Notes under the pieces: generated by a model
Database searches by the model: none
The model's input: only the letters and a program-made list of their open reading frames with translations
Told to the model about the DNA's origin: nothing
Virus record (IMG/VR): IMGVR_UViG_3300022752_000023
Span: 80,421 to 144,420 of that record
Length of the DNA stretch: 64,000 nucleotides
Direction: 5' to 3' (one strand)
DNA from: a virus
In this document: positions 22,285 through 62,220 of the stretch, in pieces
Numbering within the stretch: position 1 is the first letter of the stretch
Layout of the letters: the number at the start of each line of letters is the position of its first letter
Translations under genes and position numbers: made by a program

Positions 22285-23106
22285 TTAGAAATTGCCCTGA
22301 GTATATTGTTTGTCGAGCATTGCCTGAATCTTGGCCGCGCGCTGGCTTACCGCGCCGGGCGTTATGTTTAATCGTCGCGCAATTTCTTGCGTGCTTGTTT
22401 TTCTTCGCCCATTCCGCCCGAGCGTCATATCCGCAATTAACTTGTCGACCGGGCCGAGATCTTCGTAAACAAAGTTAAACCAAGCGTCGGCTGATCGGTT
22501 ACTGTTTGGAATCGTGCTGGCGACATCGCCGCCATAGCTTTCTTCGTCGGTGACTTCGCGCGTCGTCATACCCTCTGACACTGGCTGGTTAAACGCGCGT
22601 ATTTTTTGAATGCGGCGTTTTGACAAACCGGTGTGATCGGCCAGTTCGTCGTCGGTAGGGTCGCGACCTAGCTGGTCGTATAGCTCCGATTCGCTCTCTG
22701 TTAGCCGGCCGTAATCAAGCCCGACTTGCTCAGGAATCGAAATGATGTTTTGCGCCTGTGCAGACATGCGGCGCAAACTCTGCAGCTGTGACAGCAGGTG
22801 TGTGCGCACATTGCCACGTTGCGGATCGTAGCTATCCAGCGCCTTGAGTGCCATAAGCCGCGCCTTAGATTTAATTGTCGGGCTGGCGTTTTGTCCGGCG
22901 TAGCTCATCACGGCCGTGTCGATAACCGGCTGAAGTGTTCCTAACAGCGCTGTATTTGTTTCCGGCGTTTTAGTGTGCTGCCACTGAGCATACGCGTTAT
23001 CAAAGTCGGTACTGACGCCGGTCGGCCTACGGGCCGAGAAAGGCGCCGGTACGTCGCCCAGAATAGACGGCATGCCCGCTGGCATACTGGTTTTGTTATC
23101 AGCCAT
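22285..23106 (-). CDS. Sigma70-family RNA polymerase sigma factor (FliA/WhiG/SigF-like architecture)
   Basis: Region 2 ALKALDSYDPQRG, region 3 LGRDPTDDELADHTGLS, region 4 HTH STQEIARRLNITPGAVSQR; start probably MADNK. Confidence 0.85.
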   Translation of the reverse strand: MADNKTSMPAGMPSILGDVPAPFSARRPTGVSTDFDNAYAQWQHTKTPETNTALLGTLQPVIDTAVMSYAGQNASPTIKSKARLMALKALDSYDPQRGNVRTHLLSQLQSLRRMSAQAQNIISIPEQVGLDYGRLTESESELYDQLGRDPTDDELADHTGLSKRRIQKIRAFNQPVSEGMTTREVTDEESYGGDVASTIPNSNRSADAWFNFVYEDLGPVDKLIADMTLGRNGRRKTSTQEIARRLNITPGAVSQRAAKIQAMLDKQYTQGNF

Positions 23107-23108
23107 GA

Positions 23109-24716
23109 TTATGCCTTCTTGAGCGGACCGCCGGGCCATTTAATACTGTTCTGGTACAACGGCGCGTACGTTTGTGAAATAAGTTTCGTGTCTTCGTCTT
23201 CTTCTTCTGTGCGAATGTATGACAGCGCAAACGACGTTCCTGCTAGCGCGCGTTCAGCGTTGATTGCGTATGAAACCTGCGTCACGGCTGCGATCATCGC
23301 GCCGTCGGATTGAATTTCTGAGTTTGGTAGCTCAATTCTAACAATACTGCCCGGAGCAATATCAAACCGCAATTTGCCCGATAGTTCTCCGTAACGTTGG
23401 CTCAAAAACTCGGTTTTGTAAAAGTGTTCTGCGAAACGTTTACTCACGCCGTCCGCCATTCCGTTTGCGACGTCAGCCGGTAATAACCACTCTGGCGGCG
23501 GCTCACCTTCGCCGGTGGCTGGCGCGATACAATCGCCGGGTCGCTTCCCTTTTATGCCAGTTGTTGCGCCCGTAAAAATCGGCCACGGCGACATGTTTGT
23601 CAACCACGAGGGTAAGTCTTTAAATAGCTTTAATCCGGGGCGCTCTTCTCCGGGTTTAAACGGGTACTGACCCGCGGGTTGAGTGTATACGTCAGCCATA
23701 TGAACTTGTCCGCCGGTTGATAACATCGGATCCATTTGTTGGGGCCAAAATACGACCACGCTGTCGATAAGTTGACTCATAGGCGCGTTAAAGTTGGCGT
23801 AGCTGTACTCGTCACCTTTGATGACGTATTTTTTATTGCCGTCATGTTTGAGTCCGCCAAAAAAAGGAACGACGTAGGCGTGTTCGATTGCCGGCGACAC
23901 GGCAAAGAAAAACTGCGACGCATACTCGCCTACAAGCTTCCCCCAGAACGATGTGTAGGCGAACGACTCTAGCGCGTCCTTTGTGAGCGCCGTTCTCACA
24001 GATTGTTCGATGTTGTTGCCGTTTAAGCCATCAAGATTTAAAGCAAGCTTGGCATTACCCGGAGCAACAGGTATTCTCTTTAACGCTTTTATGGCGGCCG
24101 CGTTCGGACGCGACTGCGGTAACTTATACTCAGCCATTTTGTTGAAGATTGGCTTGATAACTTCGCCCCACAAATCACGCGCAATCTTGTCTTTACGGAT
24201 AAGATCTCCGTTGGCGTCAATAACGGGGACGCTGGAGCTTGCGTTACCTTCTGTCTGCAGCGCCACAAATGCTGCGTTTGTGGCCATAAGAAACGGCGCG
24301 TTTTGAAACCACTTGCCGTTGAGCGCCGACGAGTTGTTTAAATCGTCGAGCCAGTGGATGAGTTGCAGCACGTAGTTAGCGCTGTTATGCGAGCGTTGAT
24401 ACCCGATGCCGGCAAGCATGCCTTCAAATATCACAAATCCGCCGTTCTCCATTTTGTCTTTCTGCCCGGCTTCAGGAATAATTCTGAGCCAGACAGTCAC
24501 AGGATCGCGCGGTTTGATTTGTTTACGCAGCTTATGGATCGTCGCTTCACGCGTCTGACCCGATGCTGCGTCGTATCCGACAGCCACGGTAAGGGATGCG
24601 GTTGGAATACTGTTCAACCCGAACGTCGCCGAAATAGCTACGACGTCATTAAACACGGTGTCTTTAATCTTTGCCGTGATTTCAAACTTCGAGTAGACGT
24701 ACGGAGCCTTAGCCAT
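23109..24716 (-). CDS. Baseplate hub protein (gp27/VgrG N-terminal-like)
   Basis: IFEG.L.G and G.LRFDIAPGS.V.I....VTQVSY.I motifs; position after tape measure. Confidence 0.6.
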   Translation of the reverse strand: MAKAPYVYSKFEITAKIKDTVFNDVVAISATFGLNSIPTASLTVAVGYDAASGQTREATIHKLRKQIKPRDPVTVWLRIIPEAGQKDKMENGGFVIFEGMLAGIGYQRSHNSANYVLQLIHWLDDLNNSSALNGKWFQNAPFLMATNAAFVALQTEGNASSSVPVIDANGDLIRKDKIARDLWGEVIKPIFNKMAEYKLPQSRPNAAAIKALKRIPVAPGNAKLALNLDGLNGNNIEQSVRTALTKDALESFAYTSFWGKLVGEYASQFFFAVSPAIEHAYVVPFFGGLKHDGNKKYVIKGDEYSYANFNAPMSQLIDSVVVFWPQQMDPMLSTGGQVHMADVYTQPAGQYPFKPGEERPGLKLFKDLPSWLTNMSPWPIFTGATTGIKGKRPGDCIAPATGEGEPPPEWLLPADVANGMADGVSKRFAEHFYKTEFLSQRYGELSGKLRFDIAPGSIVRIELPNSEIQSDGAMIAAVTQVSYAINAERALAGTSFALSYIRTEEEDEDTKLISQTYAPLYQNSIKWPGGPLKKA

Positions 24717-48929: not shown

Positions 48930-50315
48930 TTACACCAAACCGCGAGCATGAATCTGTGATTCGAGATTGTTTTTTAACGCTTCAGCGCGAATCTTTTCCA
49001 TTTCAACAAGCTGCTTAATATCAAAATCAGCCAGCTGACCAGCTTCAAGACGCTTGCGCAGCAACGCCTGCATAGCAGCGCCAGATCCAGTGAAGTTCGG
49101 CGCAATCTCAGCGATTTGATTGTAAGCCGTTGCAATCTCGTGCGGATCGTAGCCGGAGATTACAGGGTCGTTCAAAATTAAATCGTTTAGCACGCCGCGC
49201 GATTTAATCTGCTGTAGTTTGTTCTCGTGCTCGGCATCTGACATGCGCATATACGCTTTTTGTTTTTGCGCCAGCGGATTAGTAGCTTTTTCTTCGTTAG
49301 CGCCCATCTCACTTGCGATGCCCTTGGGGCTCATGAGCTTACCGAGGTGCCCCATCGTCCCGCTGTACGATGTCAGCGGCGGAGCTGATTCCGTATCTGG
49401 TTTTTTTTTATCTTTAACCGCCGCCACCTTAAGGGCGAGCGGCGCTGTTTTCGGATCATGCAGAATAGAACCGGTAACCGTCGCGGGCGCGCTCTTTTTT
49501 TCAACAGTCGGTTGGTTTAGCGCAGCCAACTTGCTCGCGGCGTCGTTGCGCAGCTCGACGGCTTTGATCACATTTTCAACAAGCGTCACGACAGGTAGAG
49601 AACCAAAAAAGTTCTCGTTTGTGGCGGCTTGTTTTGTGAAGTGCGGATAGACGGCAGCGATCTTGTTTAATGTTGAAACGCCGATGTCGCCAAGCCGTAA
49701 CCCGACTTCGCGAACAGCGTCGGAAAACGACATGTTGCCGGGCACGCGAAAATATTGCGCCAACTCTTCCATGGCCGAAGCCGCTTTGTGGTGGGAAACT
49801 GTCGCCAGCCGCCGCACCTCGTCAGCCTCGCGACGCGTGGCCTGCTTTTCGCTATAAGCCCGCCGCGCCGCAGAGTGGTCGTCGCGCGGTGGCGGTACAT
49901 ATGTGGGCGCAGGTAGTACGCTCTTCGCGGCAGCGGCTTTGTTTAAGCTTTCATTCCGTCGGGCGATAAACCCACGCGGCGACACAGCGTACTCAGTCGA
50001 GATGATGCTGTTATTTGTTAATTCAGCAGAGGTTTTGACGTTTTTCGGATAAAGCGCATCCATGACGACGTTAACATCGGCGAGCTGGAAATCTGCGGCT
50101 TTTTCCAGCGTTGTCTCGCCCAGTTCGCGCTGCTTGTTTGTGCGTCCGGTGTTATAGGCGTGCACCATGAGATTGATGTGCCCAGCAGGAATTCCGGCGT
50201 CACTTGCGCTTTTGATAATAGCGGCGTTTGGCGTAGACCCGTCGTTGACCAGAGTGGCCGCACGCTCAATTGCGCTCAGCAATTTTTGCTCAGCTTCTTT
50301 ACTTAATGCCCGCAT
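48930..50315 (-). CDS. Head-internal protein with many K-x-A motifs
   Basis: More than 10 K-x-A sites, no Cys. Confidence 0.75.
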   Translation of the reverse strand: MRALSKEAEQKLLSAIERAATLVNDGSTPNAAIIKSASDAGIPAGHINLMVHAYNTGRTNKQRELGETTLEKAADFQLADVNVVMDALYPKNVKTSAELTNNSIISTEYAVSPRGFIARRNESLNKAAAAKSVLPAPTYVPPPRDDHSAARRAYSEKQATRREADEVRRLATVSHHKAASAMEELAQYFRVPGNMSFSDAVREVGLRLGDIGVSTLNKIAAVYPHFTKQAATNENFFGSLPVVTLVENVIKAVELRNDAASKLAALNQPTVEKKSAPATVTGSILHDPKTAPLALKVAAVKDKKKPDTESAPPLTSYSGTMGHLGKLMSPKGIASEMGANEEKATNPLAQKQKAYMRMSDAEHENKLQQIKSRGVLNDLILNDPVISGYDPHEIATAYNQIAEIAPNFTGSGAAMQALLRKRLEAGQLADFDIKQLVEMEKIRAEALKNNLESQIHARGLV

Positions 50316-51638: not shown

Positions 51639-54020
51639 TTAGGCGTTAGCGATAGCGCCAAGATCGATATCCTGCGCGGCTTCTTCGGGATACGGCTCGA
51701 TGGTCTTCTGCTTGAGGAACAGAATGACGTCGCCCAGCATTTCAAACGCATTGCGCAGCGAGTCTTCTAATTCCGGCATATCAGCTTTGCCGTAACGTTC
51801 GGCAAACCGGTCACCGTGCCAATAGAACATAAACAAGATGCGGCCTAGTTTATCGAGGCCCTTGGTCAGCTCGCCCATGTAACGATCGACCAGCGAGTCG
51901 TCTCGCACGGCGCGCAGCATGGCGCCCACCATTGCCGTGTCGAACACTTCGCGCTGCCCACTCTGCGCGGCGTCGATGACAGAGCGAACGTCGCGCTGAT
52001 CGAGAAGCGTGTTGGGGTTGTACACGCTGCGGTCAGTTTGGCTGGCGCTCATGCCCGGCACCTGTACAGCGGTGTCGATACCGAGCTGTGTCGGGACGCT
52101 TGTGCCCATGATGCTCTCGCCGCCCATAACCGGACCCGGATCTGTGGGCGCCGACGGGGCGCCGTTGATCATCATCGGACCGCCGTACGGATCGGCATAC
52201 TTAACGCGGCACTCAAACTTGCGCTTGGCGGCCGCTTGCTTCAGGATCTCGCGCGCTGCTTCTTCGCGCAGCCCGTGATGTTCAACAAGCGTTACAAGCG
52301 CTTTGATCGGGCTGAGTCCGGCTTCTTTGTTAATAGTTACCGATGTGCCGTTGTGGTAAACGGTTAGCGCGGCGGTTTTTTGCATAAGTGCCAGCTGTGC
52401 GTCGACGAGGTTACCGGGCTGCAGGGCTGGCGGATCACTCTCGCCGCATCCACAAGCGCCTTGATCTTCGGCCGCCTCGGCGTCGTCTTCGCCCTTGGTG
52501 ACCTTGAGCAGCTTGAAACCTTCTGGCACAAAGATGTCGCCCATGCTCGCGCGCAGGCTGGCGCCCTTCTTGCCGTTCAAGTGAATACGCACGCCGTCGC
52601 GCCATTTGTCGTAGTTCAACGGGTCGGTGTAGCAGCACGCGCCAATCGAACCCTTGGGCGGATACTTCGAATGGTCTTCAAGATGCACCTCATAGACTGT
52701 GCTGCCGTTGCTGTCGCCATACTCTTTGATCACGCGAAACGGCGCTGTCGTGTCGCCACGTTTGCTGAGCGCAATGTATCGCGCGTCTTTGCTCGGCACA
52801 CTATTGGCTTCTGGCAAGCCGTCGAACCACTTGTCAAATTCCTCGCCCCCGATTCGGGCCAGAGCAAAAACTTGGTCGGCACGAGTGTTGAGCCAGTTAC
52901 GGGCCCCATCAACGCGCACCACAGTGATAAAGTTTTCGCGTTTGGCGGCGCCTTGCGGGTGTACAGCGACGTAGCAGCGCTCGATGTTGCCCGGCTTGAC
53001 GAGGATTTCGTACAAGCCGCTTTCAGTCGGGTTGAATAGCTTTTTCTCGACCTGAATGTGATACGGGATGGAGACATTGTCGCGATCGCGCTCGTCTTGA
53101 ATTAGAACGCCGTCGCGCAGTAGCTTCTCCTGATCTTCTTCGCTGTAACCGACAGGAGCTTTAGTTTGCACCGTCACGTCGTACGTAATTACTTTAAGGC
53201 CCTTTGCCGCAGCGGGTTCTTTCGGGGCTTCGGATAGCACACTGGCAATTTTTGTGTTGGCCGCGTCTTCACGAAACTTCGCCATGACCATCGCTTCGCG
53301 CACCACGTCCAGCCCGTGAAACTCGTCGATGGCTTTGGCCAGCTGCGGCGCGTGTTGGCACGTTTTAATCAACGTGGCAATTACTTCCAGCCCGGCTTGC
53401 TTTAAAAAGGTCGGCAGGTCTAGCGCTGCGCCGATTTCCTTAAAAGTTTGCGCGGTGTTTAGCGTGGCGCTCTTGGCGAGAGCCGGCATTGCCGCCGTCA
53501 TCATTTCCTTGAGCGTGGGCTGCGCCGAACCAAACTTAGCCGGGCTGCGCGAAAGCTGCGTGAAGTCGGGCTGGCGTTGCCCCATATTCGATAGGTTGCG
53601 CTCGACGCCGCTGCCCAGAATGTTGGGTTTGCGGTTAATGAGGTAATTGATCCAATTTTCCTTGAGCGGCACGAACATGTCCTGATTTTTGATATACAGG
53701 AGTTCGTGACCCTTGAGGTCGCCGTTGAGAAAAAACACCGGCGCGTACAGCCAGTTGGAACCAACCTTGAACGCGAAAACGCCGACCGCTTTGGTGTTTT
53801 CTCGGTTGCGATCGAGCAGCTGGAAGCCGATTTCGTGATCTAGCAGCTTGGGGGCCGAATCGCGCAGGTAGGCGTGCGCCAGATTGCTAAACGACTGCTC
53901 AAAAGAGGTGTCGTCGCCCTTGCCGCCTAAATCGGCATATTTGGTCTGAGTGCGGTCATACGACTTCAGCACATTCAGCCAATGCTTAACAGACGACTCT
54001 TTCGCTTTTTTGTTGTACAC
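51639..54020 (-). CDS. Large head-associated protein with K-x-A motifs
   Basis: Likely GTG start at 54020 (GGAGG SD); KYAD twice, KSAT, KQAG, KIAS, KTAA, KQAA. Confidence 0.75.
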   Translation of the reverse strand: MYNKKAKESSVKHWLNVLKSYDRTQTKYADLGGKGDDTSFEQSFSNLAHAYLRDSAPKLLDHEIGFQLLDRNRENTKAVGVFAFKVGSNWLYAPVFFLNGDLKGHELLYIKNQDMFVPLKENWINYLINRKPNILGSGVERNLSNMGQRQPDFTQLSRSPAKFGSAQPTLKEMMTAAMPALAKSATLNTAQTFKEIGAALDLPTFLKQAGLEVIATLIKTCQHAPQLAKAIDEFHGLDVVREAMVMAKFREDAANTKIASVLSEAPKEPAAAKGLKVITYDVTVQTKAPVGYSEEDQEKLLRDGVLIQDERDRDNVSIPYHIQVEKKLFNPTESGLYEILVKPGNIERCYVAVHPQGAAKRENFITVVRVDGARNWLNTRADQVFALARIGGEEFDKWFDGLPEANSVPSKDARYIALSKRGDTTAPFRVIKEYGDSNGSTVYEVHLEDHSKYPPKGSIGACCYTDPLNYDKWRDGVRIHLNGKKGASLRASMGDIFVPEGFKLLKVTKGEDDAEAAEDQGACGCGESDPPALQPGNLVDAQLALMQKTAALTVYHNGTSVTINKEAGLSPIKALVTLVEHHGLREEAAREILKQAAAKRKFECRVKYADPYGGPMMINGAPSAPTDPGPVMGGESIMGTSVPTQLGIDTAVQVPGMSASQTDRSVYNPNTLLDQRDVRSVIDAAQSGQREVFDTAMVGAMLRAVRDDSLVDRYMGELTKGLDKLGRILFMFYWHGDRFAERYGKADMPELEDSLRNAFEMLGDVILFLKQKTIEPYPEEAAQDIDLGAIANA

Positions 54021-54101
54021 GGCCAGCCTCCATGCTGCGCTCAAAATTAGGGGCAATATTAATTTACTGCCCCGAAGTCCTTATATCCTACAAAAACGGG
54101 T

Positions 54102-55982
54102 TCAAGGCTTCCACCCGCTTGTTGCGCCCGTTACGCCAAATTGTTCGCCTTGCGCTAGCGCCGGCACATAACTGCTGCCTGCTGTGTCGCTACTTAAACC
54201 GCGCTGAACGCTATTCATAAGCCCTTTTTCTTGATATGAACCCAGCATTCGGGTCATCCAGTCGGGGTCGTTTGAAATGTTTGCCATACCCCGCACCATC
54301 TCCGGCTGAAACGGCGGCGGTTCTTTATGCGCTTGAATTGTTTTAACGCCATATTTGTTTAAGTTTGTCAGCACGTTTTTACCGATCTTTGTGCCGATTG
54401 AATAGTGCAACACGGGTTTTTCTAAATAGTGCCCGGTTAACGTGTTTGGCGCGGCCGATACGCTACCTTCTCGCGGCGTCCAATTACGCTCAATAGCGGA
54501 GTAAGGCACTACGTCGTCAGGCACGTAATCGCCGTATTCGTCGGTCAGGCGTACATGATTTACAAGTCCGCGCGCCAGTAGTTCGATGTTGCGGCGATGG
54601 GCTGTAATACCGCTGTTACCCATGACCTGCCGCATAGCTTGCACAAAATAACGACGTCCTTCGCCTACGCCTTTGTGCCGGACAATTTCTGCTGGATTTG
54701 GCATACCCTCCGATATAACGTCACCAGCTTCAAGCTCATCGCCCTTTTTGACCGAAAGATTTCTCTCTGTCGGAACGTAGTGGTCCTGACCGTTAATCTG
54801 CACATAGTGGCCGCCCTGCGGAGCCGGACGAACTTCCTGCACACGGCCGTCTAGCTGCGCGTGCACGGCGCCGTCTGGGTATTTCTTCGGGACCTGTACA
54901 AGCGCGTTGAGCGCTTTAAAACCCGAAATCGCTCCCGCGCCGCCGACACCGCCAGAGTGCTTCGAGCTGATCTGGCTTTGCGTGACTGGTTCCGACAGCG
55001 CCTGTGCTGCCGCGATACCCACATAATCTCCAACAGGCGGTAAACGCCCCTTTTCCCTGTAACCCACATCTTTCGCATAAACACCGCCGTCCCCGGGGCC
55101 GCCAACAATCGGGCTGCGAACTAAGATATCTTTGGCGCCACTTTCCTTCAGATCCCGAAGTATCTTGGGCGTCAAAATTGTGTTGCGTTTATATGGCCCG
55201 ACGGCGCGCGCTAATAACGCGCCCTCGTTATCCGGGTCGTCTACGTCGGTTGGGTACCCGCGCTCTTCTAGCGCGGCGCGGCGCTCTTCGTCGGTGTCGT
55301 CGTCATCATCCGCGGTAACCAACAGCCGATGCGTCATCTGCGCCAACTGTTTACCATAGAAACCAGCGTCAGCCGTTGCGGTTTTAAGATCAATTACGCC
55401 CTTACGTGTTCCGAATGCGCCGGCAAAATACTCTACCGGCCGCAAGCCTTGGCTGTATCCGCGCAATACCGGAATTGGAATTGGATCGCCGCGATGGTCG
55501 AGATACTGCATGTCGGCGCCAAGAATTGAGTTCAGCTGAAATTTGTTGCCGACCCCAGAGCCGGCAATCTGGTGCGCCAGCGGATTGTCCTGCCCCTCGG
55601 CCTCCTTGTACACCTTGTCGAGCAGTTCTTGTTGCGCAGCCTGCGCCAGTTCAAGCAATTTAATATTGCGCTGTTTTTCATCGAGCCGTTTGTCGGCAAA
55701 AATGTCGCGCATTTGATTCTGTACGCGCAACTGAACGTGCCGCGCCGCTAGCGTCGGACGAATATCTTTGAGTCCAAACGATAAACCGTTCGTCGTGTAA
55801 CCGGCATCACGACCAATGTCGTGAAGCCGCTTCATCACGTCACGATATTTTTCTGGGTGGTTTTTTGCCAAATCGGTGGCGACGTTTGACATCGTTTTTT
55901 TAGTTAATACGCGATCATAGTCGCGCATTTCGGGCGGCAACGCTTCATTAATCAAAAGTTGTCCAAGCGTCGTCTTTAGCAT
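54102..55982 (-). CDS. rpoC: DNA-directed RNA polymerase beta' subunit, C-terminal part
   Basis: TTLGQLL.N, GL.PVEYF....GTRKG..D....TADAG (bridge helix), G.YVGI.AAQALSEP.TQ....KH.GG (trigger loop), V.KGD..EAGD.ISEG. Confidence 0.93.
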   Translation of the reverse strand: MLKTTLGQLLINEALPPEMRDYDRVLTKKTMSNVATDLAKNHPEKYRDVMKRLHDIGRDAGYTTNGLSFGLKDIRPTLAARHVQLRVQNQMRDIFADKRLDEKQRNIKLLELAQAAQQELLDKVYKEAEGQDNPLAHQIAGSGVGNKFQLNSILGADMQYLDHRGDPIPIPVLRGYSQGLRPVEYFAGAFGTRKGVIDLKTATADAGFYGKQLAQMTHRLLVTADDDDDTDEERRAALEERGYPTDVDDPDNEGALLARAVGPYKRNTILTPKILRDLKESGAKDILVRSPIVGGPGDGGVYAKDVGYREKGRLPPVGDYVGIAAAQALSEPVTQSQISSKHSGGVGGAGAISGFKALNALVQVPKKYPDGAVHAQLDGRVQEVRPAPQGGHYVQINGQDHYVPTERNLSVKKGDELEAGDVISEGMPNPAEIVRHKGVGEGRRYFVQAMRQVMGNSGITAHRRNIELLARGLVNHVRLTDEYGDYVPDDVVPYSAIERNWTPREGSVSAAPNTLTGHYLEKPVLHYSIGTKIGKNVLTNLNKYGVKTIQAHKEPPPFQPEMVRGMANISNDPDWMTRMLGSYQEKGLMNSVQRGLSSDTAGSSYVPALAQGEQFGVTGATSGWKP

Positions 55983-55983
55983 G

Positions 55984-56223
55984 TCACGGCGTCCACATTA
56001 TTTTCTGCATCGACTTCGGCTGAAACTCTGACACAACAACCGTTTTGTCGACACCCAGCGCGCGTAAAAGCGAATGAAACTCCTTTTCGCCGACTGTCGC
56101 ATAAACAACAGCTTCGTCAACCTGAATAGCAACAAATAGCGGATTGCCGAGATCGTCTTCGACAATCACGCTATGTGCTTTTTTTTCGGTCGGCTGCAGG
56201 CTGTGTTGCGTTTTAACCAGCAT
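55984..56223 (-). CDS. Hypothetical protein (79 aa) between the RNAP parts
   Basis: Packed ORF, overlaps upstream gene. Confidence 0.65.
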   Translation of the reverse strand: MLVKTQHSLQPTEKKAHSVIVEDDLGNPLFVAIQVDEAVVYATVGEKEFHSLLRALGVDKTVVVSEFQPKSMQKIMWTP

Positions 56224-56941
56224 TGTCCGCTATGCTCCGAATCATCGCGGCGATAGCGTTTGCTTTAATCTGCATTTGTGTCGGCGCGTTCGGATTAGAG
56301 ACGCTGGGACCAAACGGCCGGCCGATTGAAGAAGCCGATTTTTCAGCGCGATCCCACCACGCGGCCTTCGACGGATCAGCCTCGGGTGGCGGAGCGTTCG
56401 GCGGCATTGGTCCGCCCGGAGGCATTGGTCCGCCCGGCGGTTGCATTCCACCCTGCGCGTTCGGGTCTTGCGGCGGCGGCGCCATCGGGCCGCCGGGAAG
56501 CGCTGTTTCAGCCGGCGGCGCGCCAGTCGTACCGGGGGGTAACACCAGAGACTCCGGCGGCACCTGAACACCCATCGCGTTCATGATGGCGGTAAGTTGC
56601 TGCTGCATGTTGTACAAACGATAGTCGAGCATTTGCATCATTTGCTCGGGTTTAAGTTTTTGCTGCGCGCCAGCAGGGGCTGCGCCCGGAGCGGCGGGTG
56701 CGGCGGGCGCTGCGGGAGGTGCAGCGGGAGGCGCCATTCCCATAGCCGCAGGATCCACTGGCGGTGCAGCTGCTGCAGCAACAGCAGACGGATCGGCCGG
56801 CGGAACAGCCCCCATGGCGGCTGGATCAACCGGCGGAGCACCACCAGCAGCAGCGGGATCCACCGCCGCTCCGGGCACTAATGCGGATTTTTCAAAGCGC
56901 GCCTTCGCCAGCGCAATGAGTTCGGGGTTTACCGTGAACAT
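56213..56941 (-). CDS. Pro/Ala-rich low-complexity protein between the RNAP parts
   Basis: GGAGG SD; PPVDPAAMG repeats, central helix, EKSA twice. Confidence 0.8.
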   Translation of the reverse strand: MFTVNPELIALAKARFEKSALVPGAAVDPAAAGGAPPVDPAAMGAVPPADPSAVAAAAAPPVDPAAMGMAPPAAPPAAPAAPAAPGAAPAGAQQKLKPEQMMQMLDYRLYNMQQQLTAIMNAMGVQVPPESLVLPPGTTGAPPAETALPGGPMAPPPQDPNAQGGMQPPGGPMPPGGPMPPNAPPPEADPSKAAWWDRAEKSASSIGRPFGPSVSNPNAPTQMQIKANAIAAMIRSIADNAG

Positions 56942-56961
56942 ACAACCTCCATGTTTAACGC

Positions 56962-59900
56962 TTACGTATTATCTTCCACAATATGAACCGGGGTGTCCAC
57001 CTCTATTTCGCCGCGGCGGTATGCCTGTACAGCGTCCTGCTTGCTACGAAACACACGTGGTTTGGCTTTTTTACTAATCCGGCTAGACGCTAAGTATAAC
57101 CCGGTTTGGTAGTCTTTGTTAGGAACGTAGTGCGCGCGAAACGTCGATGTCGCGAACAAATTCTTGCTCGGCAGCATTTTTTCAACGGCTTCTTTCGCGG
57201 CGTCTTCTGTGCTTGGAACGTGATACTGCATCGCATCACCGTCAAAGTCGGCGCCAAACCCTTTGGTGATTACAGGGTTCACTTCCATGACTTTGTTTTT
57301 AGTTAACTTGGGATAGAAAGCCATCATACCGTAGCGATGAAGTACCGGGGCGCGGTTGATAACAATCGGCCGCGACGACATCTGCTGATTTAACTCAGCA
57401 AACGCTTCTTTGTTTTTATCTTCAACGGCCTGCATAGCTTGCATGCGCGGAAGGCCGCGGCGAACAAGCCCCCGAACAACGAACGGCTTGTAAATATCCC
57501 ACGCTTTCTCTTCTGGCAGCGCAACTTCATCCATATCAAGGTCGGGATTTGGTGTAATGACGGCGCGACCGACAAGGTCTACCGTCGAACTGAGCAGCTT
57601 GCGCTGAACAGTGCCGTATTTTGGCGAGTTACCAAACACGTGGCGTAGAAAACCTTTGACGTTGCGCTCGACGTTTTTAGGCTGCTGCGGCTCACCCAAT
57701 CCGGTAACAGCCTTCATCGAGTCATACATGCTCAGCCGTTCGTCGCCGTAGTCGGCTAGCGCGCCAGAAGCTTCTTTCAGCGTATCGTTAGCGTCGAGCA
57801 ATTCTTTGTACAGATAATTTGCGTCGGCCACGAGAGGTAACTTTTTACTGCCCATTGTGCTCACGGGCCTGAAGAGCGGCGGTAGCACCGGGACTTTACT
57901 AATCATCCAGTCCTTGGGGTGCACACCAGTTGTTTCAGCGCTCTTTAAGAAACCAAGCCGACGCACAGCAGCGTCGCGCAGCGTTTTACGCCCGGATTTA
58001 ATATCTAAACGCGCCTGCTCGATCGCCTTCGGCAAATTAATGCGTTCCAGCGCGTTTTTGATCGCGATCGGACCTGTTTTGTCGCCCAGCTGTTCGCGCC
58101 CAGCAAGGACGCCGCGAAACTGCTTTTCCGTTAAGCCCAGCACGCGGCGAATCGGGTCTTCCATAACTGGATTCGGCATCGGCTCATGTAGCGTGATCTT
58201 GCTCCACCGATTACCGCCGTGGCCGCCGGTAAGTGTTTCGTCAAACAGGCCACCCGCGATGGGTTTAAGCCGTCCCTTCCAGTCTACGGTCTCGGAACTC
58301 TTCAGCTCTCGCGGGCCGGCCAGTTCATCCACGTCTTTATCGGTCATCGCCATCAGGTTTGAACGCGTGCCCTTTCGCACGACGTTGATGCCAGACGCTT
58401 TTAACTGAGTGACAAACTTCTCATAAACGTGCGGCACTTTGGGTAGCGGCGGAGTGTAACCAGCCATGAACTGCGACCAGTACTCGGGGTTGGCTTGTCC
58501 GCGCACCATCTTGGCGTCGCGAATAACTTTGCCCGCGCCGTGCGACAGCAGCGCGCCGAGATCTAACATGCCGATTCGCTTTGCGCCTTCGCTGCCGCCC
58601 TTTGCCGGCGTGCCTTCGGCGGTATACGCGCCCATTGACCGGCCTTGGGCTTTCGACTCGCTGGTGTGATGCAACTTCATAAAAAAACGATTACCGGTGA
58701 GCACGCCGCCAATTTTTCGCCCGGTCTCTGGGTCGATAACGTCTTCGGTGTCTGACAAACCGTGCTTCGCGAGTTCTTTCTGCGCAAACTCAATCAGATC
58801 GTTTTTGTTATCAAAGTCTTTAAGCTTGTATGGCGAACCAGTTTTCGCGGCGACTTTGCCCAGCGCGGCTTCAATCACTTGCGCCGGGTTAATACGACTG
58901 ATCAGACCTAACGGCGAAACAAGCACTTCAAAAGGATTGCCGTCGCGATCTTTGGGCATCTGATCGTCGGGAACAATCTCGGCGACGACGCCCTTGTCTC
59001 CAAAACGCCCGGTGAGCTTGTCGCCAACGTCCATGGGGGACTGATTCTTCACCACAACGCTCACACCCTTTTTGGTGTGCATAACGTCAGTCACGATACC
59101 GGGCGCGTGGTGATCCCACGTAATAGTTTCATTGGTGAAGTTGCCGGCACGACCACGATGAACTTTGCCGTATACGGTGTCTTTCTTTTTAGCTACCAAT
59201 ACGAGCGGATCGCCAAATTTGACTTCGGTGCCTTTTTTAATTGCTCCGTTGTCGTCAAAGTTATCGAGATACTTTTTATCGTACTCTGCGGGAAACAAAC
59301 TCACGAACGCCTTCTTGCCAACGTGAGTGTTGTCGTCCCACTCGGCTTCGTGCTGATACATGTGCTCAGACGTCAACCGTTTGGAGGCAGATTCAGAAAT
59401 AACAACCGCGTCTTCGTAGTTCTTGCCGCGAAAGGGCAGGTAAGCCGTACGCAAGTTCAACCCCAACGCCGCGCTACCGTTTTGGTCAGTAAAGTTGGAC
59501 CGAGCCAAAAGCTGTCCCGGCTCAACGACATCGCCCGGTTTAACAAGCGGCGTCTGATGTAAAAACGTTTTGCGGTTGTACGGCATCTCGTTGTATAAAT
59601 CGATCGTCTTCTTATTGCCGTCTTTGTCGCGCAGCACAATACCGTCTGGCGTCACATCGACGACTTGCGCGCGTTCGGTCGCGCGAGTCGCGCCCAACTT
59701 CTCGCCCATCTCGTCTTCGTGCGAAACTTTGTCGTCATCGGCTTTAGCAGACTGCAGCAGCGGCGCCTCGGCGTTTACGAGTGGCAACGCCTGCGTAAAC
59801 ATTCGGCTACCCATGATCACGCGATGACCCTTGATCATCGATTTGATGGGCACCATGTTGGTCAGCGCAGAGAACGTGCTATCCATGTTCGGCAAACCAA

Positions 59901-61365
59901 ATTGCGCTTCTTTTCGCGGCACATACTTTAATTTGCCGTTTACGAGCGCTGCGACAACCGGTAGGTCGTTGTCTTCTTCACCCGGAAACACAAGCGGCGT
60001 ATCGGCCAGTTCTTGCGGCGTCTTATACACTTTCTCGCCGGTTTTCATATCGACAACTGGCGTATAGACCTTGCCGTCAGCGCCCTTCATAGCGCCACGA
60101 GCAAAGCGCATATCGACACCCACTTTGCCCGATTCCGGCGTGCGCAAGTAGTCAATAAACCCAAGATGGCTCGGCTGCACAGAACGCGACTCAGCCGGCA
60201 CTGCGTCGAGCGAGCCAATCCCGCCCTCGCCCATGCGCGTAACACGAGTCTGGTGGTCAAAGATTTCGGCTGGATTGATCTCTTCTAAACTCGATCCCAG
60301 CCCGCTGCCTATAAGCGCCGCAGAAATCGCCTTGTCAAACACACCAGACGGAATGTGATCGATCGACTTCTTCGCCGTGGCTTTCCACAGAAGTTTGTTT
60401 AACCCTTGCCGGTCTTTAATAAACCTTTCAGCAATCAGGTCTTCGGGGCCGACGACTGACTGATACACCATGTTGTCGCGGTCGTCGCTCTCGGCCTCGC
60501 GGCGATTCACGGCAATCAACTTCTTCGTAATCGCCAGAATCGTTTCCGGCGTCATGTTCTTGTATTCGGCGCCAAGCGTACGGCGTGTGACTTCCGGGTC
60601 CAATTCGGTCTTGGCAAACTCAGCGGCAATGGCCTGCGCTTTCGCGATGGCGTCCGCGCCAGCGACGGGTTTGTTTACGAGACGCGCATAGATCTTGTCC
60701 ATCGTGCCGGCGTCGCCCTTCTCCATGTTGACGGCGGTAATCTCGTTGCCCCACGCCGAACGAATGTCCTGATCGGAAACACCCATGGATTTGAGCAGCG
60801 GCATGAGCGGGATCTGTGCCTGCCCGATGCTGATCTTGAAAACGCCGGTCTTTGGGTCGAGAAAGTACCGGTGCGATCGGCCTTTCCCCGGAAGCGTGTT
60901 TACGTGCGCTTCGATCTCGCCGTTATCTTTCTCGCGGGTAAACACGCCCGGACGTAAGCGCATCTGGTGCGCGAGAGTGTACTCTACGCCGCCGTTCACA
61001 AACGTGCCGGAGTCGGTGAGATACGGCACGTGGGCGATCGTGGCGCGGCGCTGACCGACGGATTGGCCGGTTTTGTTATCAACGAGCGTCCACGTTCCCT
61101 GCAGCCGCCGGGCAAGTGTCCCCCGGGAGAGGACGGCTTTCTTTTGATCTGCCCGTGTAAAACGTTCAGGTCCGGTGTACCCGACGTCTTGAAGCTGCAG
61201 CGTATACAGATCGTTCTGCAGCGGTTTTAAACTTTGCGCGCTGGTCAGCGCTTGGTTAAAAATGTTGTCGCGCATCGTGCCAACGTCGCCAAACGTGCGC
61301 ATTGTCGGCGCAACGGGTGCGGAAAGCGGCGCGGGCGCTTTAAGCGGCGGTAACTCGGGGGTCAT
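56962..61365 (-). CDS. rpoBC: DNA-directed RNA polymerase beta fused to the N-terminal part of beta' (1467 aa)
   Basis: beta: GTFVNGG, TPESGKVG, NYEDA, GDKLTGRFGDKGV, MKLHH; then beta': GGLFD, PVLPP.FRP, GRAVI, NRAPVLH, catalytic ADFDGD. Confidence 0.95.
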   Translation of the reverse strand: MTPELPPLKAPAPLSAPVAPTMRTFGDVGTMRDNIFNQALTSAQSLKPLQNDLYTLQLQDVGYTGPERFTRADQKKAVLSRGTLARRLQGTWTLVDNKTGQSVGQRRATIAHVPYLTDSGTFVNGGVEYTLAHQMRLRPGVFTREKDNGEIEAHVNTLPGKGRSHRYFLDPKTGVFKISIGQAQIPLMPLLKSMGVSDQDIRSAWGNEITAVNMEKGDAGTMDKIYARLVNKPVAGADAIAKAQAIAAEFAKTELDPEVTRRTLGAEYKNMTPETILAITKKLIAVNRREAESDDRDNMVYQSVVGPEDLIAERFIKDRQGLNKLLWKATAKKSIDHIPSGVFDKAISAALIGSGLGSSLEEINPAEIFDHQTRVTRMGEGGIGSLDAVPAESRSVQPSHLGFIDYLRTPESGKVGVDMRFARGAMKGADGKVYTPVVDMKTGEKVYKTPQELADTPLVFPGEEDNDLPVVAALVNGKLKYVPRKEAQFGLPNMDSTFSALTNMVPIKSMIKGHRVIMGSRMFTQALPLVNAEAPLLQSAKADDDKVSHEDEMGEKLGATRATERAQVVDVTPDGIVLRDKDGNKKTIDLYNEMPYNRKTFLHQTPLVKPGDVVEPGQLLARSNFTDQNGSAALGLNLRTAYLPFRGKNYEDAVVISESASKRLTSEHMYQHEAEWDDNTHVGKKAFVSLFPAEYDKKYLDNFDDNGAIKKGTEVKFGDPLVLVAKKKDTVYGKVHRGRAGNFTNETITWDHHAPGIVTDVMHTKKGVSVVVKNQSPMDVGDKLTGRFGDKGVVAEIVPDDQMPKDRDGNPFEVLVSPLGLISRINPAQVIEAALGKVAAKTGSPYKLKDFDNKNDLIEFAQKELAKHGLSDTEDVIDPETGRKIGGVLTGNRFFMKLHHTSESKAQGRSMGAYTAEGTPAKGGSEGAKRIGMLDLGALLSHGAGKVIRDAKMVRGQANPEYWSQFMAGYTPPLPKVPHVYEKFVTQLKASGINVVRKGTRSNLMAMTDKDVDELAGPRELKSSETVDWKGRLKPIAGGLFDETLTGGHGGNRWSKITLHEPMPNPVMEDPIRRVLGLTEKQFRGVLAGREQLGDKTGPIAIKNALERINLPKAIEQARLDIKSGRKTLRDAAVRRLGFLKSAETTGVHPKDWMISKVPVLPPLFRPVSTMGSKKLPLVADANYLYKELLDANDTLKEASGALADYGDERLSMYDSMKAVTGLGEPQQPKNVERNVKGFLRHVFGNSPKYGTVQRKLLSSTVDLVGRAVITPNPDLDMDEVALPEEKAWDIYKPFVVRGLVRRGLPRMQAMQAVEDKNKEAFAELNQQMSSRPIVINRAPVLHRYGMMAFYPKLTKNKVMEVNPVITKGFGADFDGDAMQYHVPSTEDAAKEAVEKMLPSKNLFATSTFRAHYVPNKDYQTGLYLASSRISKKAKPRVFRSKQDAVQAYRRGEIEVDTPVHIVEDNT

Positions 61366-61368
61366 GGC

Positions 61369-62220
61369 TCACCCCGCTTGCGACTGCGCGGCCTGCTGCT
61401 TCAACGCAATAATCTCGTCGGGGTCGACGTACGTAGGCAGAATGCCGGCAATGCGCGCCTTCGATTTCGCAGCCTCTTCCACGGCTTTGGCGCGCGACCG
61501 ATCACGAGCACGGTCGTACATCAGCTTGGCGGCCAGCCCGCCCAGACCAAGTCCCGCGCCAACATACGCGCCGCCGACTGTGGCCGGAACTCGTTTGGCG
61601 ATGTCATACGCGTCGGTCAGCCACTCTAGCAGCGCCTTCTTTTCTGACGCGGCTTTTTCACTTGCGGCGTCGTATGCGCTGTCTAACTTTTTGCCCCCGC
61701 CACCAGTGAGCGCGTCGTAATACTCTTTTTCAGCCGCGGCAATCTGATCTTGCTGCTCACGCCGCTTTTTTCTCTTGTGAAGTGCTTCAATAAGCTTGTA
61801 CCCGCCGAGACCGCCCAAAGCCGCGGCGCCAAATGTCGCACCTGTTCCGAATGACGACCGTAGAATGTTCGGGTCGTAGGAGTTTGGGTTTTTGTTTGTA
61901 GCTGGCGTGAACGGCCGCAAAAAACTTACCCACGTGTCCGGCAGCATTTTGCCGACACCCTCAGTGATGTTGTCGTAAATGCCGGCCGCTTTTGTTTCAG
62001 TAATCTTTGGCGTCTCTTCTTCCTCTTCTTCTTTTGGCTTATTTAACGCCTGAGATAACCCGCGGGCCAAATAATAAAGACTAGCAGCACCAGCGCCAGC
62101 GCCAAGCCCACCAAGACCAGTACGGATAATACGATCGCCCCAAAAACGCTGGTAGTCTTGGGCTGTAGGCGCGCCCACAGGGGCAGTTGGCAGCACGGCA
62201 TTGTTGGCTCGTTTATCCAT
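61369..62220 (-). CDS. Glycine-zipper head-internal (candidate ejection) protein
   Basis: Three Gly-rich hydrophobic segments; KAAG/KAAS sites; no Cys. Confidence 0.75.
   Translation of the reverse strand: MDKRANNAVLPTAPVGAPTAQDYQRFWGDRIIRTGLGGLGAGAGAASLYYLARGLSQALNKPKEEEEEETPKITETKAAGIYDNITEGVGKMLPDTWVSFLRPFTPATNKNPNSYDPNILRSSFGTGATFGAAALGGLGGYKLIEALHKRKKRREQQDQIAAAEKEYYDALTGGGGKKLDSAYDAASEKAASEKKALLEWLTDAYDIAKRVPATVGGAYVGAGLGLGGLAAKLMYDRARDRSRAKAVEEAAKSKARIAGILPTYVDPDEIIALKQQAAQSQAG

What the first reader, a model, noticed from the sequence alone, without database searches (positions are those of the whole stretch)
55982..58400. Unusual RNAP architecture: beta fused to beta'-N, with beta' split after the catalytic region and two genes in the gap
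The beta C-terminus (PKVPHVYEKFVTQLKASGINV) runs in frame into beta' (LMAMTDKDV...GGLFD) near 58350-58390. The chain stops shortly after ADFDGD, and the rest of beta' restarts at MLKTTLGQ after two intervening ORFs. Helicobacter and Wolbachia have full rpoBC fusions. Cyanobacteria split beta' just after the TTxGR segment, whereas the break here is just before it, implying an independent split. Both active-site barrels end up on one polypeptide, which might reduce dependence on alpha; no alpha gene is in the window.
Basis: partly seen in the sequence, partly recalled or inferred. Interest (0 to 1): 0.75.

Follow-up and report, generated by a model that had tools for sequence, protein, structure and literature searches.

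The report
Fused-and-split phage RNA polymerase
An uncultured lake phage of about 205 kb encodes its only RNA polymerase as two chains, all of beta joined to the front of beta-prime, with the back of beta-prime separate; a very large phage family shares this layout, the enzyme is probably carried in the virus particle, and I found no paper that describes it.

Summary
Window 56962-61365 (-) is one 1467-aa ORF. Residues 1-995 are a complete, compact beta. An 8-residue linker follows, then beta' up to about E. coli residue 555, including GADFDGD. The rest of beta' (bridge helix, trigger loop) is a 626-aa gene at 54102-55982 (-). Two small conserved genes of unknown function lie between them.

This is not an assembly artefact. 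The same fusion, linker length and break point occur in 36 IMG/VR contigs, in all 150 best 50%-identity clusters of a 1.8-billion-protein library, and in the cultured Salmonella phage Arash and Vibrio phages D69, D148 and D181.

The window comes from a phage. Complete relatives are 204-205 kb. They have one polymerase set and no alpha or omega, but they do have a sigma70-family gene. The enzyme lacks the beta' zinc ribbon and has no cysteine. In Arash, the orthologues of both chains and of the sigma are among the most abundant virion proteins, so packaging and injection are likely here but not shown.

The break point differs from the cyanobacterial one (about 60 residues later) and from the one in jumbo phages (about 30 residues earlier).

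It is a new variant of known kinds. Earlier follow-ups in this scan reported the same layout in related genomes.

The parts
56962..61365 (-). Fused beta::beta'-N gene (1467 aa, no Cys). Beta is residues 1-995 (58381-61365), the linker VRKGTRSN is 996-1003 (58357-58380), and beta'-N is 1004-1467 (56965-58356). GADFDGD is at 57235-57255. The zinc ribbon is replaced by GGHGGNRWS (58201-58227).
56213..56941 (-). Gap gene 1: 242-aa Pro/Ala-rich, Cys-free protein with a GGAGG ribosome-binding site, starting 20 nt after the stop of the fused gene. Function unknown.
   Evidence: No Pfam or PHROG hit. Present at this position in all 30 related IMG/VR loci long enough to show it, at 48-98% identity. No homologue in the Arash or D69 loci.
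55984..56223 (-). Gap gene 2: 79-aa Cys-free protein. It overlaps gap gene 1 by 11 nt, and its stop lies 1 nt before the beta'-C start codon. Function unknown.
   Evidence: Conserved in the same 30 loci. The AF2 model (pLDDT 85.5) shows five beta strands and one helix. No credible PDB match (Foldseek E > 0.6, VIA Z 2.0).
54102..55982 (-). Beta'-C gene (626 aa, no Cys). The bridge-helix equivalent is at 55338-55430, and the trigger loop starts at 54948-55010. A poly-Asp tract (55284-55310) lies in the stretch where E. coli beta' carries its second zinc site.
   Evidence: Pfam Rpb1_5 E 7.2e-24; alignments; motif coordinates
54050..54073 (-). Terminator-like hairpin (9 bp) with a T-rich tail directly after the beta'-C stop. 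It is the likely end of the four-gene polymerase operon.
   Evidence: The total count of such sites in the region is not above the shuffled expectation; only the position is suggestive.
51639..54056 (-). Downstream 805-aa gene (the true start is probably about 12 codons later). It is weakly homologous to Arash gp218, an abundant virion structural protein, and to Vibrio phage D69_0266.
   Evidence: PMC10585845
61369..62220 (-). Conserved Cys-free 283-aa gene directly upstream of the fused gene. Function unknown.
22285..23139 (-). Sigma70-family gene (284-aa ORF; relatives start 11 codons later, giving 273 aa), Cys-free, among tail genes. It is the candidate promoter-specificity subunit.
   Evidence: Pfam Sigma70_r3 E 1.8e-9 (38 bits, cut-off 25.3) plus a sub-threshold region-4 HTH. 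BLASTP E 3e-21 to the Arash gp10 ORF. 419 homologues, which JGI names sigma factors.

Best explanation
This is the single, functional multisubunit RNA polymerase of a roughly 205-kb tailed phage, re-cut into two polypeptides.

Chain 1 carries all of beta, and therefore the beta double-psi barrel. A constant 8-residue turn joins it to the clamp and the Mg-binding barrel of beta'. Chain 2 carries the bridge helix, the trigger loop and the rest of beta'. The last strand of beta and the first strand of beta', which are neighbours in bacterial enzymes, become one beta-hairpin. The fusion therefore ties the two catalytic barrels together in 1:1 stoichiometry without an alpha-dimer platform.

The enzyme has no alpha, no omega, no zinc ribbon and no cysteine. 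It most likely works with the phage's own sigma70-family protein. It is probably made late with the structural genes, packed into the capsid and injected with the DNA to start transcription.

Shown: the gene architecture; its conservation; the absence of alpha and omega genes; the presence of a sigma gene; the loss of Cys and the zinc ribbon.

Inferred from a 32%-identical cultured relative: virion packaging.

Inferred only: injection, independence from host alpha, and use of the phage sigma.
For: Architecture.

Conservation:
- 36 IMG/VR loci at 74-97% identity. All 30 that are long enough show the order upstream gene, fused gene, gap gene 1, gap gene 2, beta'-C, downstream gene.
- The 120 best 90%-identity clusters cover the junction region at 99-100%.
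- All 150 best 50%-identity clusters span the junction. Where the match reaches the query's end, it stops within about 20 residues of the protein's C-terminus.
- Arash gp206/gp216 and D69 0261/0264 share the linker length, the zinc-ribbon deletion and both chain ends.
- The fused clade is monophyletic, with 100/99 support.

Structure: the AF2 model of residues 560-1467 has pLDDT 83.3. The junction forms a hairpin (strands at model residues 434-439 and 442-447) with pLDDT about 80-84. The model matches both solved beta chains (E 3e-33) and cyanobacterial gamma (E 1.5e-30).

Subunit inventory: all eight genomes have one Rpb2_6 locus. No alpha was found in any of them, seven of which are complete; no omega was found in the five complete genomes searched for it. 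A sigma gene is present.

Packaging: in Arash virions, gp206 had the most spectra of any protein (3516; 100% coverage). gp216 had 1210 and sigma gp10 had 467 (PMC10585845). In this window the polymerase and sigma genes are co-oriented with the sheath and tail-fibre genes. The gene after beta'-C resembles the Arash virion protein gp218.

Cysteine: 0 Cys in 2093 polymerase residues against a window mean of 1.2%. 111 of 121 intein-free homologues also have none. Unfused phage beta' proteins have 10-17 Cys and keep the zinc ribbon.
Against: No expression, proteomic or activity data exist for this phage. The Arash authors themselves note that abundant enzymes could contaminate virion preparations. 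Arash is only about 32% identical, and its gap holds nine different genes. Mass-spectrometry coverage does not prove that gp206 stays one chain. The sigma could instead redirect the host polymerase, as most phage sigmas do. Host alpha or omega could still be recruited. Lack of cysteine is only circumstantial evidence for transit through the tail.
Confidence: 0.7

Rival explanations
1. The architecture is real, but the enzyme is not injected. It would be a middle or late polymerase made inside the cell, and its presence in Arash virion preparations would be carry-over of an abundant protein.
For: The Arash paper itself raises this possibility. There are no data for this phage. The genes sit in a late-type structural block, which also fits a late-acting enzyme.
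Against: gp206 gave the most spectra of any protein in the Arash virion proteome, more than the major capsid protein (3516 against 1333). gp216 and sigma gp10 were also found there. Each genome has only one polymerase set, so if it is not packaged, host polymerase must make it first. The whole polymerase, the sigma and the likely tape measure (26093-30766, 1557 aa) are Cys-free.
Confidence: 0.2
2. The 1467-aa product is a polyprotein that a phage or prohead protease cuts at the junction, giving ordinary separate beta and beta'-N chains.
For: Internal head proteins of large phages are often processed. Peptide coverage by mass spectrometry cannot tell one chain from two.
Against: The linker is only about 8 residues and has a constant length. 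Its sequence is not conserved, so there is no shared cleavage motif across 22 diverse sequences. It is modelled as a tight hairpin turn rather than an exposed loop. The fusion is kept across more than 50% sequence divergence and in more than 150 clusters.
Confidence: 0.07
3. The fusion or the split is an assembly or frameshift artefact, or the genes are decaying remnants.
For: None beyond the unusual layout. Read mapping could not be run.
Against: The same layout is found in 36 independent IMG/VR contigs, including 100%-complete genomes with terminal repeats, in hundreds of protein clusters from JGI, ENA, Logan and NCBI, and in cultured, proteomically verified phages. Catalytic motifs are intact. 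Many invariant columns show purifying selection.
Confidence: 0.01
4. The two beta' halves are rejoined after translation by a split intein (protein trans-splicing).
For: Homologues of both genes are full of inteins.
Against: The end of chain 1 and the start of chain 2 align directly with adjacent beta' segments, RpoC about 553-560 and about 566. That leaves no room for intein halves. Chain 2 starts M-L-K, with no Cys, Ser or Thr nucleophile at its first two positions.
Confidence: 0.01

Closest known systems
Salmonella phage Arash gp206 (1525 aa) + gp216 (606 aa) + sigma gp10; Vibrio phages D69, D148 and D181 (for example D69_0261 and D69_0264)
   Same: They share the beta::beta'-N fusion with the same linker length, the zinc-ribbon deletion, the C-terminus of chain 1 and the N-terminus of chain 2. 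They also have a single polymerase set, no alpha or omega, and an orthologous sigma. They form one clade with the window's enzyme.
   Different: They are only 32% identical. Arash has nine unrelated genes in the gap, some on the other strand, and D69 has two unrelated small ORFs. They keep a few cysteines (1-2 in chain 1, 4 in chain 2). The records and the Arash paper call the proteins simply beta and beta' and do not remark on the fusion.
rpoB-rpoC fusions of Helicobacter, Wolinella and Wolbachia
   Same: The C-terminus of beta is joined in frame to the N-terminus of beta' (PMC1557499, PMC7483510).
   Different: Those fuse the whole of beta' into one chain of about 2900 aa, and they keep alpha, omega and the zinc sites. 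Here only the first third or so of beta' is fused and the rest is a separate gene.
Cyanobacterial and plastid split beta' (gamma/RpoC1 + RpoC2)
   Same: Beta' is cut in the surface region after the catalytic double-psi barrel.
   Different: Gamma extends about 60 residues further than chain 1 does here. Beta is a separate subunit there, and alpha, omega and zinc sites are present.
phiKZ/AR9-type jumbo-phage multisubunit polymerases, and the split beta'-N of Ralstonia phage RP13 and E. coli phage EP_H11
   Same: They are phage-encoded bacterial-type polymerases without alpha or omega. Beta' is split after the barrel, and one set is virion-packaged in the phiKZ-like phages (PMC7598289, PMC13282480).
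   Different: Their beta'-N ends about 30-35 residues earlier, at about RpoC 518-529. Their beta is itself split and never fused to beta'. The phiKZ/AR9 group has two polymerase sets and no sigma70-family gene. Their sequences are far more divergent (22-25% identity, E 1e-6 to 1e-9). They fall outside the fused clade in the tree.
mReC phages (Weinheimer & Aylward 2020) and cultured phages with unfused, unsplit genes (Cobetia Carin-5, Rhizobium RHph_Y65, Vibrio Va2)
   Same: They are tailed phages with readily alignable beta and beta'. Carin-5 has a sigma gene next to its polymerase genes.
   Different: Beta and beta' are separate, full-length genes (the mReC supplement lists two distinct proteins per contig). 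The zinc ribbon and 10-17 cysteines are kept.
Single-chain virion polymerases (N4 vRNAP, crAss-like gp66, P23-45 TMP-fused RNAP)
   Same: The polymerase is carried in the particle and delivered to the host. In crAss-like phages and P23-45, both barrels sit on one chain (abstracts listed).
   Different: Those enzymes are either unrelated (N4) or too divergent to align with cellular subunits. This one matches Pfam beta and beta' models at E 1e-24 to 1e-50 and has a sigma70-family partner gene.

Membership tests
Bacterial-type two-barrel multisubunit RNA polymerase (catalytic core) | Beta-type double-psi barrel and flanking beta domains | tested here: met
   Pfam Rpb2_6 E 4.4e-50 and Rpb2_3 E 5.9e-5. 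Residues 99-995 align with RpoB 113-1337. Foldseek matches beta chains at E 3e-33.
Bacterial-type two-barrel multisubunit RNA polymerase (catalytic core) | Beta' barrel with the Mg-binding (N)ADFDGD motif | tested here: met
   GADFDGD at residues 1371-1377. The three Asp are invariant in 30 sequences, while the first residue is G rather than N.
Bacterial-type two-barrel multisubunit RNA polymerase (catalytic core) | Bridge helix and trigger loop | tested here: met
   P0004 residues 137-345 align with RpoC 723-939. Pfam Rpb1_5 E 7.2e-24.
Bacterial-type two-barrel multisubunit RNA polymerase (catalytic core) | Alpha-dimer assembly platform and omega encoded with the core | tested here: not met
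   PF01000 and PF01193 gave no hit in the genomes searched, between them this genome, five 100%-complete relatives, Arash and D69. PF01192 gave no hit in three complete relatives, Arash and D69. Controls were positive in 14 of 14 genomes. Use of host alpha cannot be excluded.
Bacterial-type two-barrel multisubunit RNA polymerase (catalytic core) | Beta' zinc ribbon (four Cys near the N-terminus) | tested here: not met
   The ribbon is deleted and replaced by GGHGGNRWS. The polymerase has no Cys at all.
Full rpoBC fusion (Helicobacter / Wolbachia type) | Complete beta and complete beta' in one polypeptide | tested here: not met
   Chain 1 ends at about RpoC 553-560, and the remainder is a separate gene.
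Cyanobacterial/plastid rpoC1-rpoC2 split | Break at the gamma/beta' boundary, with beta separate | tested here: not met
   Gamma (625 aa) aligns only to its residue 558 with the end of chain 1, so its end lies about 60 residues downstream. Beta is fused here. The comparison is transitive, because no cyanobacterial sequence could be aligned directly with the start of P0004.
phiKZ/AR9-type jumbo-phage msRNAP | Beta split into two or three polypeptides | tested here: not met
   Beta is continuous, from residue 1 to 995.
phiKZ/AR9-type jumbo-phage msRNAP | Two paralogous sets (virion and non-virion) | tested here: not met
   All eight genomes have one Rpb2_6 locus, and the five complete relatives searched have one Rpb1_2 locus.
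phiKZ/AR9-type jumbo-phage msRNAP | No sigma70-family factor; specificity from gp68- or gp226-type subunits | tested here: not met
   A Sigma70_r3-positive gene is at 22285-23139, orthologous to Arash virion sigma gp10. Whether it binds the phage enzyme was not testable.
phiKZ/AR9-type jumbo-phage msRNAP | Beta' split at the same site after the barrel | tested here: not met
   The beta'-N of Madawaska, phiR1-37, RP13 and EP_H11 ends at the equivalent of P0001 residue 1430-1437, about 30 residues before the end of chain 1.
mReC phages | Separate beta and beta' genes, each at least 800 aa | tested here: not met
   The genes are fused and split here. The mReC supplement lists different gene numbers for beta and beta'.
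Virion-packaged, injected phage polymerase | Protein present in purified virions and active on entry | not testable with these tools
   The only evidence is the orthologues in the Arash virion proteome, plus gene context and the lack of Cys.

The most novel reading that the evidence does not exclude
A zinc-free, cysteine-free holoenzyme made of only two catalytic chains plus a phage sigma70-family factor is packed into the capsid, passes through the tail and starts transcription in the host without alpha, omega or any host subunit. This would be the first sigma-dependent, injected, bacterial-type multisubunit polymerase. It would also be the smallest cellular-type core known (2093 residues), with the covalent beta-beta'N link doing the assembly job of the alpha dimer.
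Probability: 0.35. Interest if true: 0.8.

Novelty: new variant of a known kind. Interest (0 to 1): 0.6.

Why it matters
Cellular-type RNA polymerases are thought to need an alpha-dimer platform (or its Rpb3/Rpb11 counterpart) to assemble the two large subunits, and they carry structural zinc. This enzyme is still 27-30% identical to bacterial beta and beta'. Yet it dispenses with alpha, omega, zinc and cysteine and consists of two chains cut in a different place.

It offers a compact, easily aligned model for several questions. What does the assembly platform do? How does a large multidomain enzyme survive packaging and ejection? Can a sigma70-type factor serve a phage-encoded core? A 2026 review (PMC13282480) says that the jumbo-phage polymerases have no sigma homologues and that jumbo phages lacking a polymerase often encode sigma homologues, which likely direct the host enzyme. 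This family encodes both a polymerase and a sigma.

The family is very large in freshwater and marine metagenomes and has cultured members (Arash, Vibrio D69-like), so the predictions can be tested now. The genes are also exceptionally rich in inteins, which may bear on how polymerase genes become split.

Tried and rejected
Independent assemblies answer the artefact question instead.
- Gap genes and neighbours: Pfam and PHROGs gave nothing for gap gene 1, gap gene 2, the 805-aa downstream gene or the 283-aa upstream gene. The ESM Atlas gave no usable hit for the 805-aa gene. The confident AF2 model of the 79-aa protein found no fold match (Foldseek best E 0.63; VIA-align best Z 2.0, to FHA-like domains, which is not meaningful).
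- Direct alignment of the first 100 residues of beta'-C to cyanobacterial gamma: not detected by phmmer, so the cyanobacterial comparison is transitive.
- A Sigma70_r2 search missed the sigma in this clade. It was found through a sub-threshold Sigma70_r4 match and then region 3.
- The Arash helicase gp217 has no homologue in the window (tblastn, E 1e-3).
- Unsplit or unfused close relatives: a search for longer proteins containing beta'-C found only intein-bearing forms and forms extended at the C-terminus. All start at the same N-terminus.
- Literature: I found no description of this layout in the Arash paper, the mReC paper and its supplement, two jumbo-phage reviews or Iyer et al. 2021. Subscription-only papers were not searchable.
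- Considered and rejected: a split intein (no room for intein halves, no nucleophile) and membership of the mReC group (which has separate genes).

Full report
**What the sequence is.** The window is bases 80421-144420 of a 144,420-bp IMG/VR virus record that CheckV estimates to be 71% complete. All long ORFs are on the minus strand. They include a tail sheath gene (35677-38904) and a tail-fibre gene (3340-8700). Close relatives in IMG/VR are 204-205 kb and 100% complete, and some have direct terminal repeats. The source is therefore a tailed phage of about 205 kb. Its relatives come from JGI, ENA and Logan metagenomes. One homologue is filed under a Betaproteobacteria metagenome-assembled genome.

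**Checking the observation.** ORF 56962-61365 (-) encodes 1467 residues without a stop.
- Pfam places beta domain Rpb2_6 at residues 584-915 (E 4.4e-50) and beta' domain Rpb1_2 at 1327-1395 (E 3.8e-24) in this one chain.
- Against Salmonella RpoB (1342 aa), residues 99-995 align with 113-1337 in three segments.
- Against RpoC, residues 1078-1452 align with 160-540 (30% identity, E 1e-43).
- ORF 54102-55982 (-), 626 aa, aligns with RpoC 723-939, which includes the bridge helix and the start of the trigger loop, and with RpoC 1180-1286. From its first residue it aligns with M. tuberculosis beta' 663-1187.
- Between the two lie a 242-aa Pro/Ala-rich ORF (56213-56941) and a 79-aa ORF (55984-56223).
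- The four genes are tightly packed. There is a 20-nt gap with a GGAGG site, then an 11-nt overlap, then a 1-nt gap. A terminator-like hairpin follows beta'-C at 54073-54050.

**The junction.** I aligned the window protein with 19 intein-free representatives of different 50%-identity clusters, Arash gp206, D69_0261, and Salmonella RpoB and RpoC.
- The beta part ends ..SGINV, opposite the last residues of RpoB (..LGINIELE).
- About eight poorly conserved residues of constant length follow (VRKGTRSN here).
- Then LMAMTDKDVDELAG...ETV...KP..GGLFD aligns with RpoC from about residue 17 (IALASPDM...ETINYRTFKPERDGLFC).
- The RpoC zinc ribbon (C-x-C...C-x-x-C) is absent from every fused sequence and is replaced by GGH-GG-NRWS. 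A second stretch, about RpoC 110-158, is also missing.
- Unfused phage beta' proteins (Carin-5, RHph_Y65, Va2, phiR1-37) keep the ribbon.
- An AlphaFold2 model of residues 560-1467, built with 30 aligned sequences, has mean pLDDT 83.3 and pTM 0.65. It makes the junction a beta-hairpin (strands at model residues 434-439 and 442-447, pLDDT about 80-84).
- The model matches solved beta chains at E 3e-33 and the cyanobacterial gamma chain at E 1.5e-30.

**The split.** The fused chain and its relatives end opposite RpoC residues 553-560. Beta'-C begins at the equivalent of LKDTTVGR, about RpoC 566. Nothing is missing between them.
- Arash and D69 end and restart at the same positions.
- Cyanobacterial gamma chains (625 and 624 aa) align with the end of chain 1 only up to gamma residue 553-558. 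The cyanobacterial break therefore lies about 60 residues further on. This is a transitive inference, because phmmer did not link the start of beta'-C to gamma directly.
- The beta'-N proteins of Staphylococcus phage Madawaska, Yersinia phage phiR1-37, Ralstonia phage RP13 and E. coli phage EP_H11 end at the equivalent of residue 1430-1437, about 30-35 residues before chain 1 ends.
- So three different cut points fall within one surface stretch of about 100 residues after the barrel.
- In a maximum-likelihood tree of the beta'-N region (22 sequences, 543 columns, LG+C20 PMSF), the fused clade is monophyletic (100/99). Arash+D69 is sister to the freshwater group.
- The fused clade is separated from the other split phage enzymes by unsplit lineages. 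It groups only weakly (82/75) with the four bacteria.
- This favours an independent split. However, sampling is small, the deep nodes are weak, and the root is only a midpoint.

**How widespread it is.**
- tblastn against 50,697 phage records finds the fused form in Salmonella phage Arash and Vibrio phages D69, D148 and D181, at 96-97% coverage and about 32% identity.
- In a 5.8-billion-protein collection, 1463 proteins match the junction region. The best 120 clusters cover it at 99-100% with 78-99% identity.
- Among 1.84 billion cluster representatives, 1746 proteins match at E 1e-30 or better. Each of the best 150 (E below 1e-159) spans the junction. Where the match reaches the end of the query, it stops within about 20 residues of the protein's C-terminus.
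- All 30 IMG/VR loci with enough DNA keep the order upstream gene, fused gene, gap gene 1, gap gene 2, beta'-C, 805-aa gene. The gap genes evolve faster than the polymerase.
- The gap genes have no homologue in Arash, where nine other genes fill the gap, or in D69, where there are two other small ORFs.
- A search for longer proteins containing beta'-C found no unsplit close relative. It found only intein-bearing forms and a sister group whose beta'-C has the same N-terminus plus C-terminal extensions of 480-1200 residues.

**Subunit inventory.**
- All eight genomes (this one, five complete relatives, Arash and D69) have a single Rpb2_6 locus. The five complete relatives searched also have a single Rpb1_2 locus.
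- The alpha models PF01000 and PF01193 found nothing in the genomes searched, which together cover all eight. The omega model PF01192 found nothing in three complete relatives, Arash and D69. All 14 control genomes scored.
- A sigma70-family gene is present at 22285-23139 (-), among tail genes. It scores Sigma70_r3 E 1.8e-9 (above Pfam's cut-off) and has a sub-threshold region-4 helix-turn-helix.
- This gene is homologous to the Arash gp10 ORF (E 3e-21). It has 419 homologues, which JGI calls sigma factors.

**Cysteine.**
- The two polymerase chains (2093 residues), both gap proteins, the upstream gene, the sigma and a 1557-aa probable tape-measure protein contain no cysteine. The window's large ORFs average 1.2%.
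- 111 of 121 intein-free homologues of the fused chain also have none.
- Arash and D69 have 1-2 Cys in the fused chain. Unfused phage beta' proteins have 10-17, and Salmonella RpoC has 15.

**Evidence for packaging.**
- In the Arash virion proteome, gp206 (the fused chain) was the most detected protein, with 3516 spectra, 128 unique peptides and 100% coverage. gp216 had 1210 spectra and sigma gp10 had 467.
- The authors suggest a role in early transcription, but they also note possible carry-over of abundant enzymes (PMC10585845).
- In this window the polymerase genes head a long co-oriented block of structural genes. The next gene resembles Arash gp218, an abundant virion protein.
- Packaging in this phage is therefore inferred, not shown.

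**Comparison with what is known.**
- Full rpoB-rpoC fusions are known in Helicobacter, Wolinella and Wolbachia (PMC1557499; PMC7483510, which cites Zakharova 1999 and Lane & Darst 2010).
- Splits of beta' after the barrel are known in cyanobacteria and in phiKZ/AR9-type phages. Those phage enzymes lack alpha, omega and sigma, and their beta is also split (PMC7598289, PMC7824862, PMC13282480).
- The metagenomic mReC phages have separate full-length beta and beta'. Their supplement lists two different proteins per contig (PMC7481178).
- I found no paper that describes beta joined to only the front of beta', or a phage multisubunit polymerase paired with a sigma70-family gene. The Arash paper labels gp206 simply beta.
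- Subscription-only literature could not be searched.
- Earlier follow-ups in this scan reached the same description on related genomes.

**Verdict.** The feature is a real, ancient and very widespread phage polymerase layout. It is a new variant that combines two known kinds of rearrangement. The functional reading (alpha-independent assembly, virion delivery, use of the phage sigma) is plausible but untested.

Noticed in passing
homologues P0012-P0275; loci L031 and L042 (fused gene 1814 aa); L014:15329-18388 (beta'-C 1019 aa): About 120 of about 270 retrieved homologues of the fused gene are 1600-3350 aa long because of inteins. The inserts start C[FY]D..TE.LT..GW and end GN[ST] or HN[ST], and Pfam finds Intein_splicing, LAGLIDADG_3 and Hint_2. 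They occupy at least 15 sites, with hot spots at the equivalents of residue ~410 and residue 1377-1380, directly after GADFDGD. The window's copy has none.
   Followed up: partly
proteins P0276-P0395: A sister group (about 53% identical to beta'-C) has the same N-terminus. It carries Cys-poor C-terminal extensions of 480-1200 aa that are not homologous to the window's downstream gene. Some contain DUF5661, DUF4269, AAA_18/AAA_33 or acylphosphatase domains.
   Followed up: partly
window 22285-23139 (-): A sigma70-family gene sits among tail genes. It is Cys-free and orthologous to the virion-associated sigma gp10 of phage Arash. Most relatives start 11 codons downstream, giving 273 aa.
   Followed up: yes
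window 26093-30766, 48930-50315, 24709-25602, 17228-17860, 61369-62220 (all -): Five more proteins have no cysteine (1557, 461, 297, 210 and 283 aa), against a window mean of 1.2%. Together with the polymerase and the sigma, they may mark the set of proteins that leave the capsid through the tail.
   Followed up: no
window 55284-55310 (-), P0004 residues 225-233: A poly-Asp/Glu tract (DDDDDTDEE) lies in the stretch where E. coli beta' carries its second zinc site. Arash and D69 beta'-C still have four cysteines.
   Followed up: no
window 51639-54056 (-): The 805-aa gene after beta'-C is weakly homologous to Arash gp218, an abundant virion structural protein, and to D69_0266. It has no Pfam, PHROG or Atlas match. 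Its annotated TTG start lies inside the terminator-like hairpin, and relatives and the Atlas record start about 12 codons later.
   Followed up: partly
L068:1517-3070 (Ralstonia phage RP13); L069:1520-3088 (E. coli phage EP_H11): These non-jumbo phages (171 and 111 kb) have a stand-alone beta'-N of about 520 aa. It ends at the same place as in the phiKZ/AR9-type phages. The jumbo-type split is therefore not confined to jumbo phages.
   Followed up: partly
window 55984-56223 (-): The 79-aa gap protein folds confidently (pLDDT 85.5) into a five-stranded meander plus one helix, with no detectable structural relative in the PDB.
   Followed up: yes
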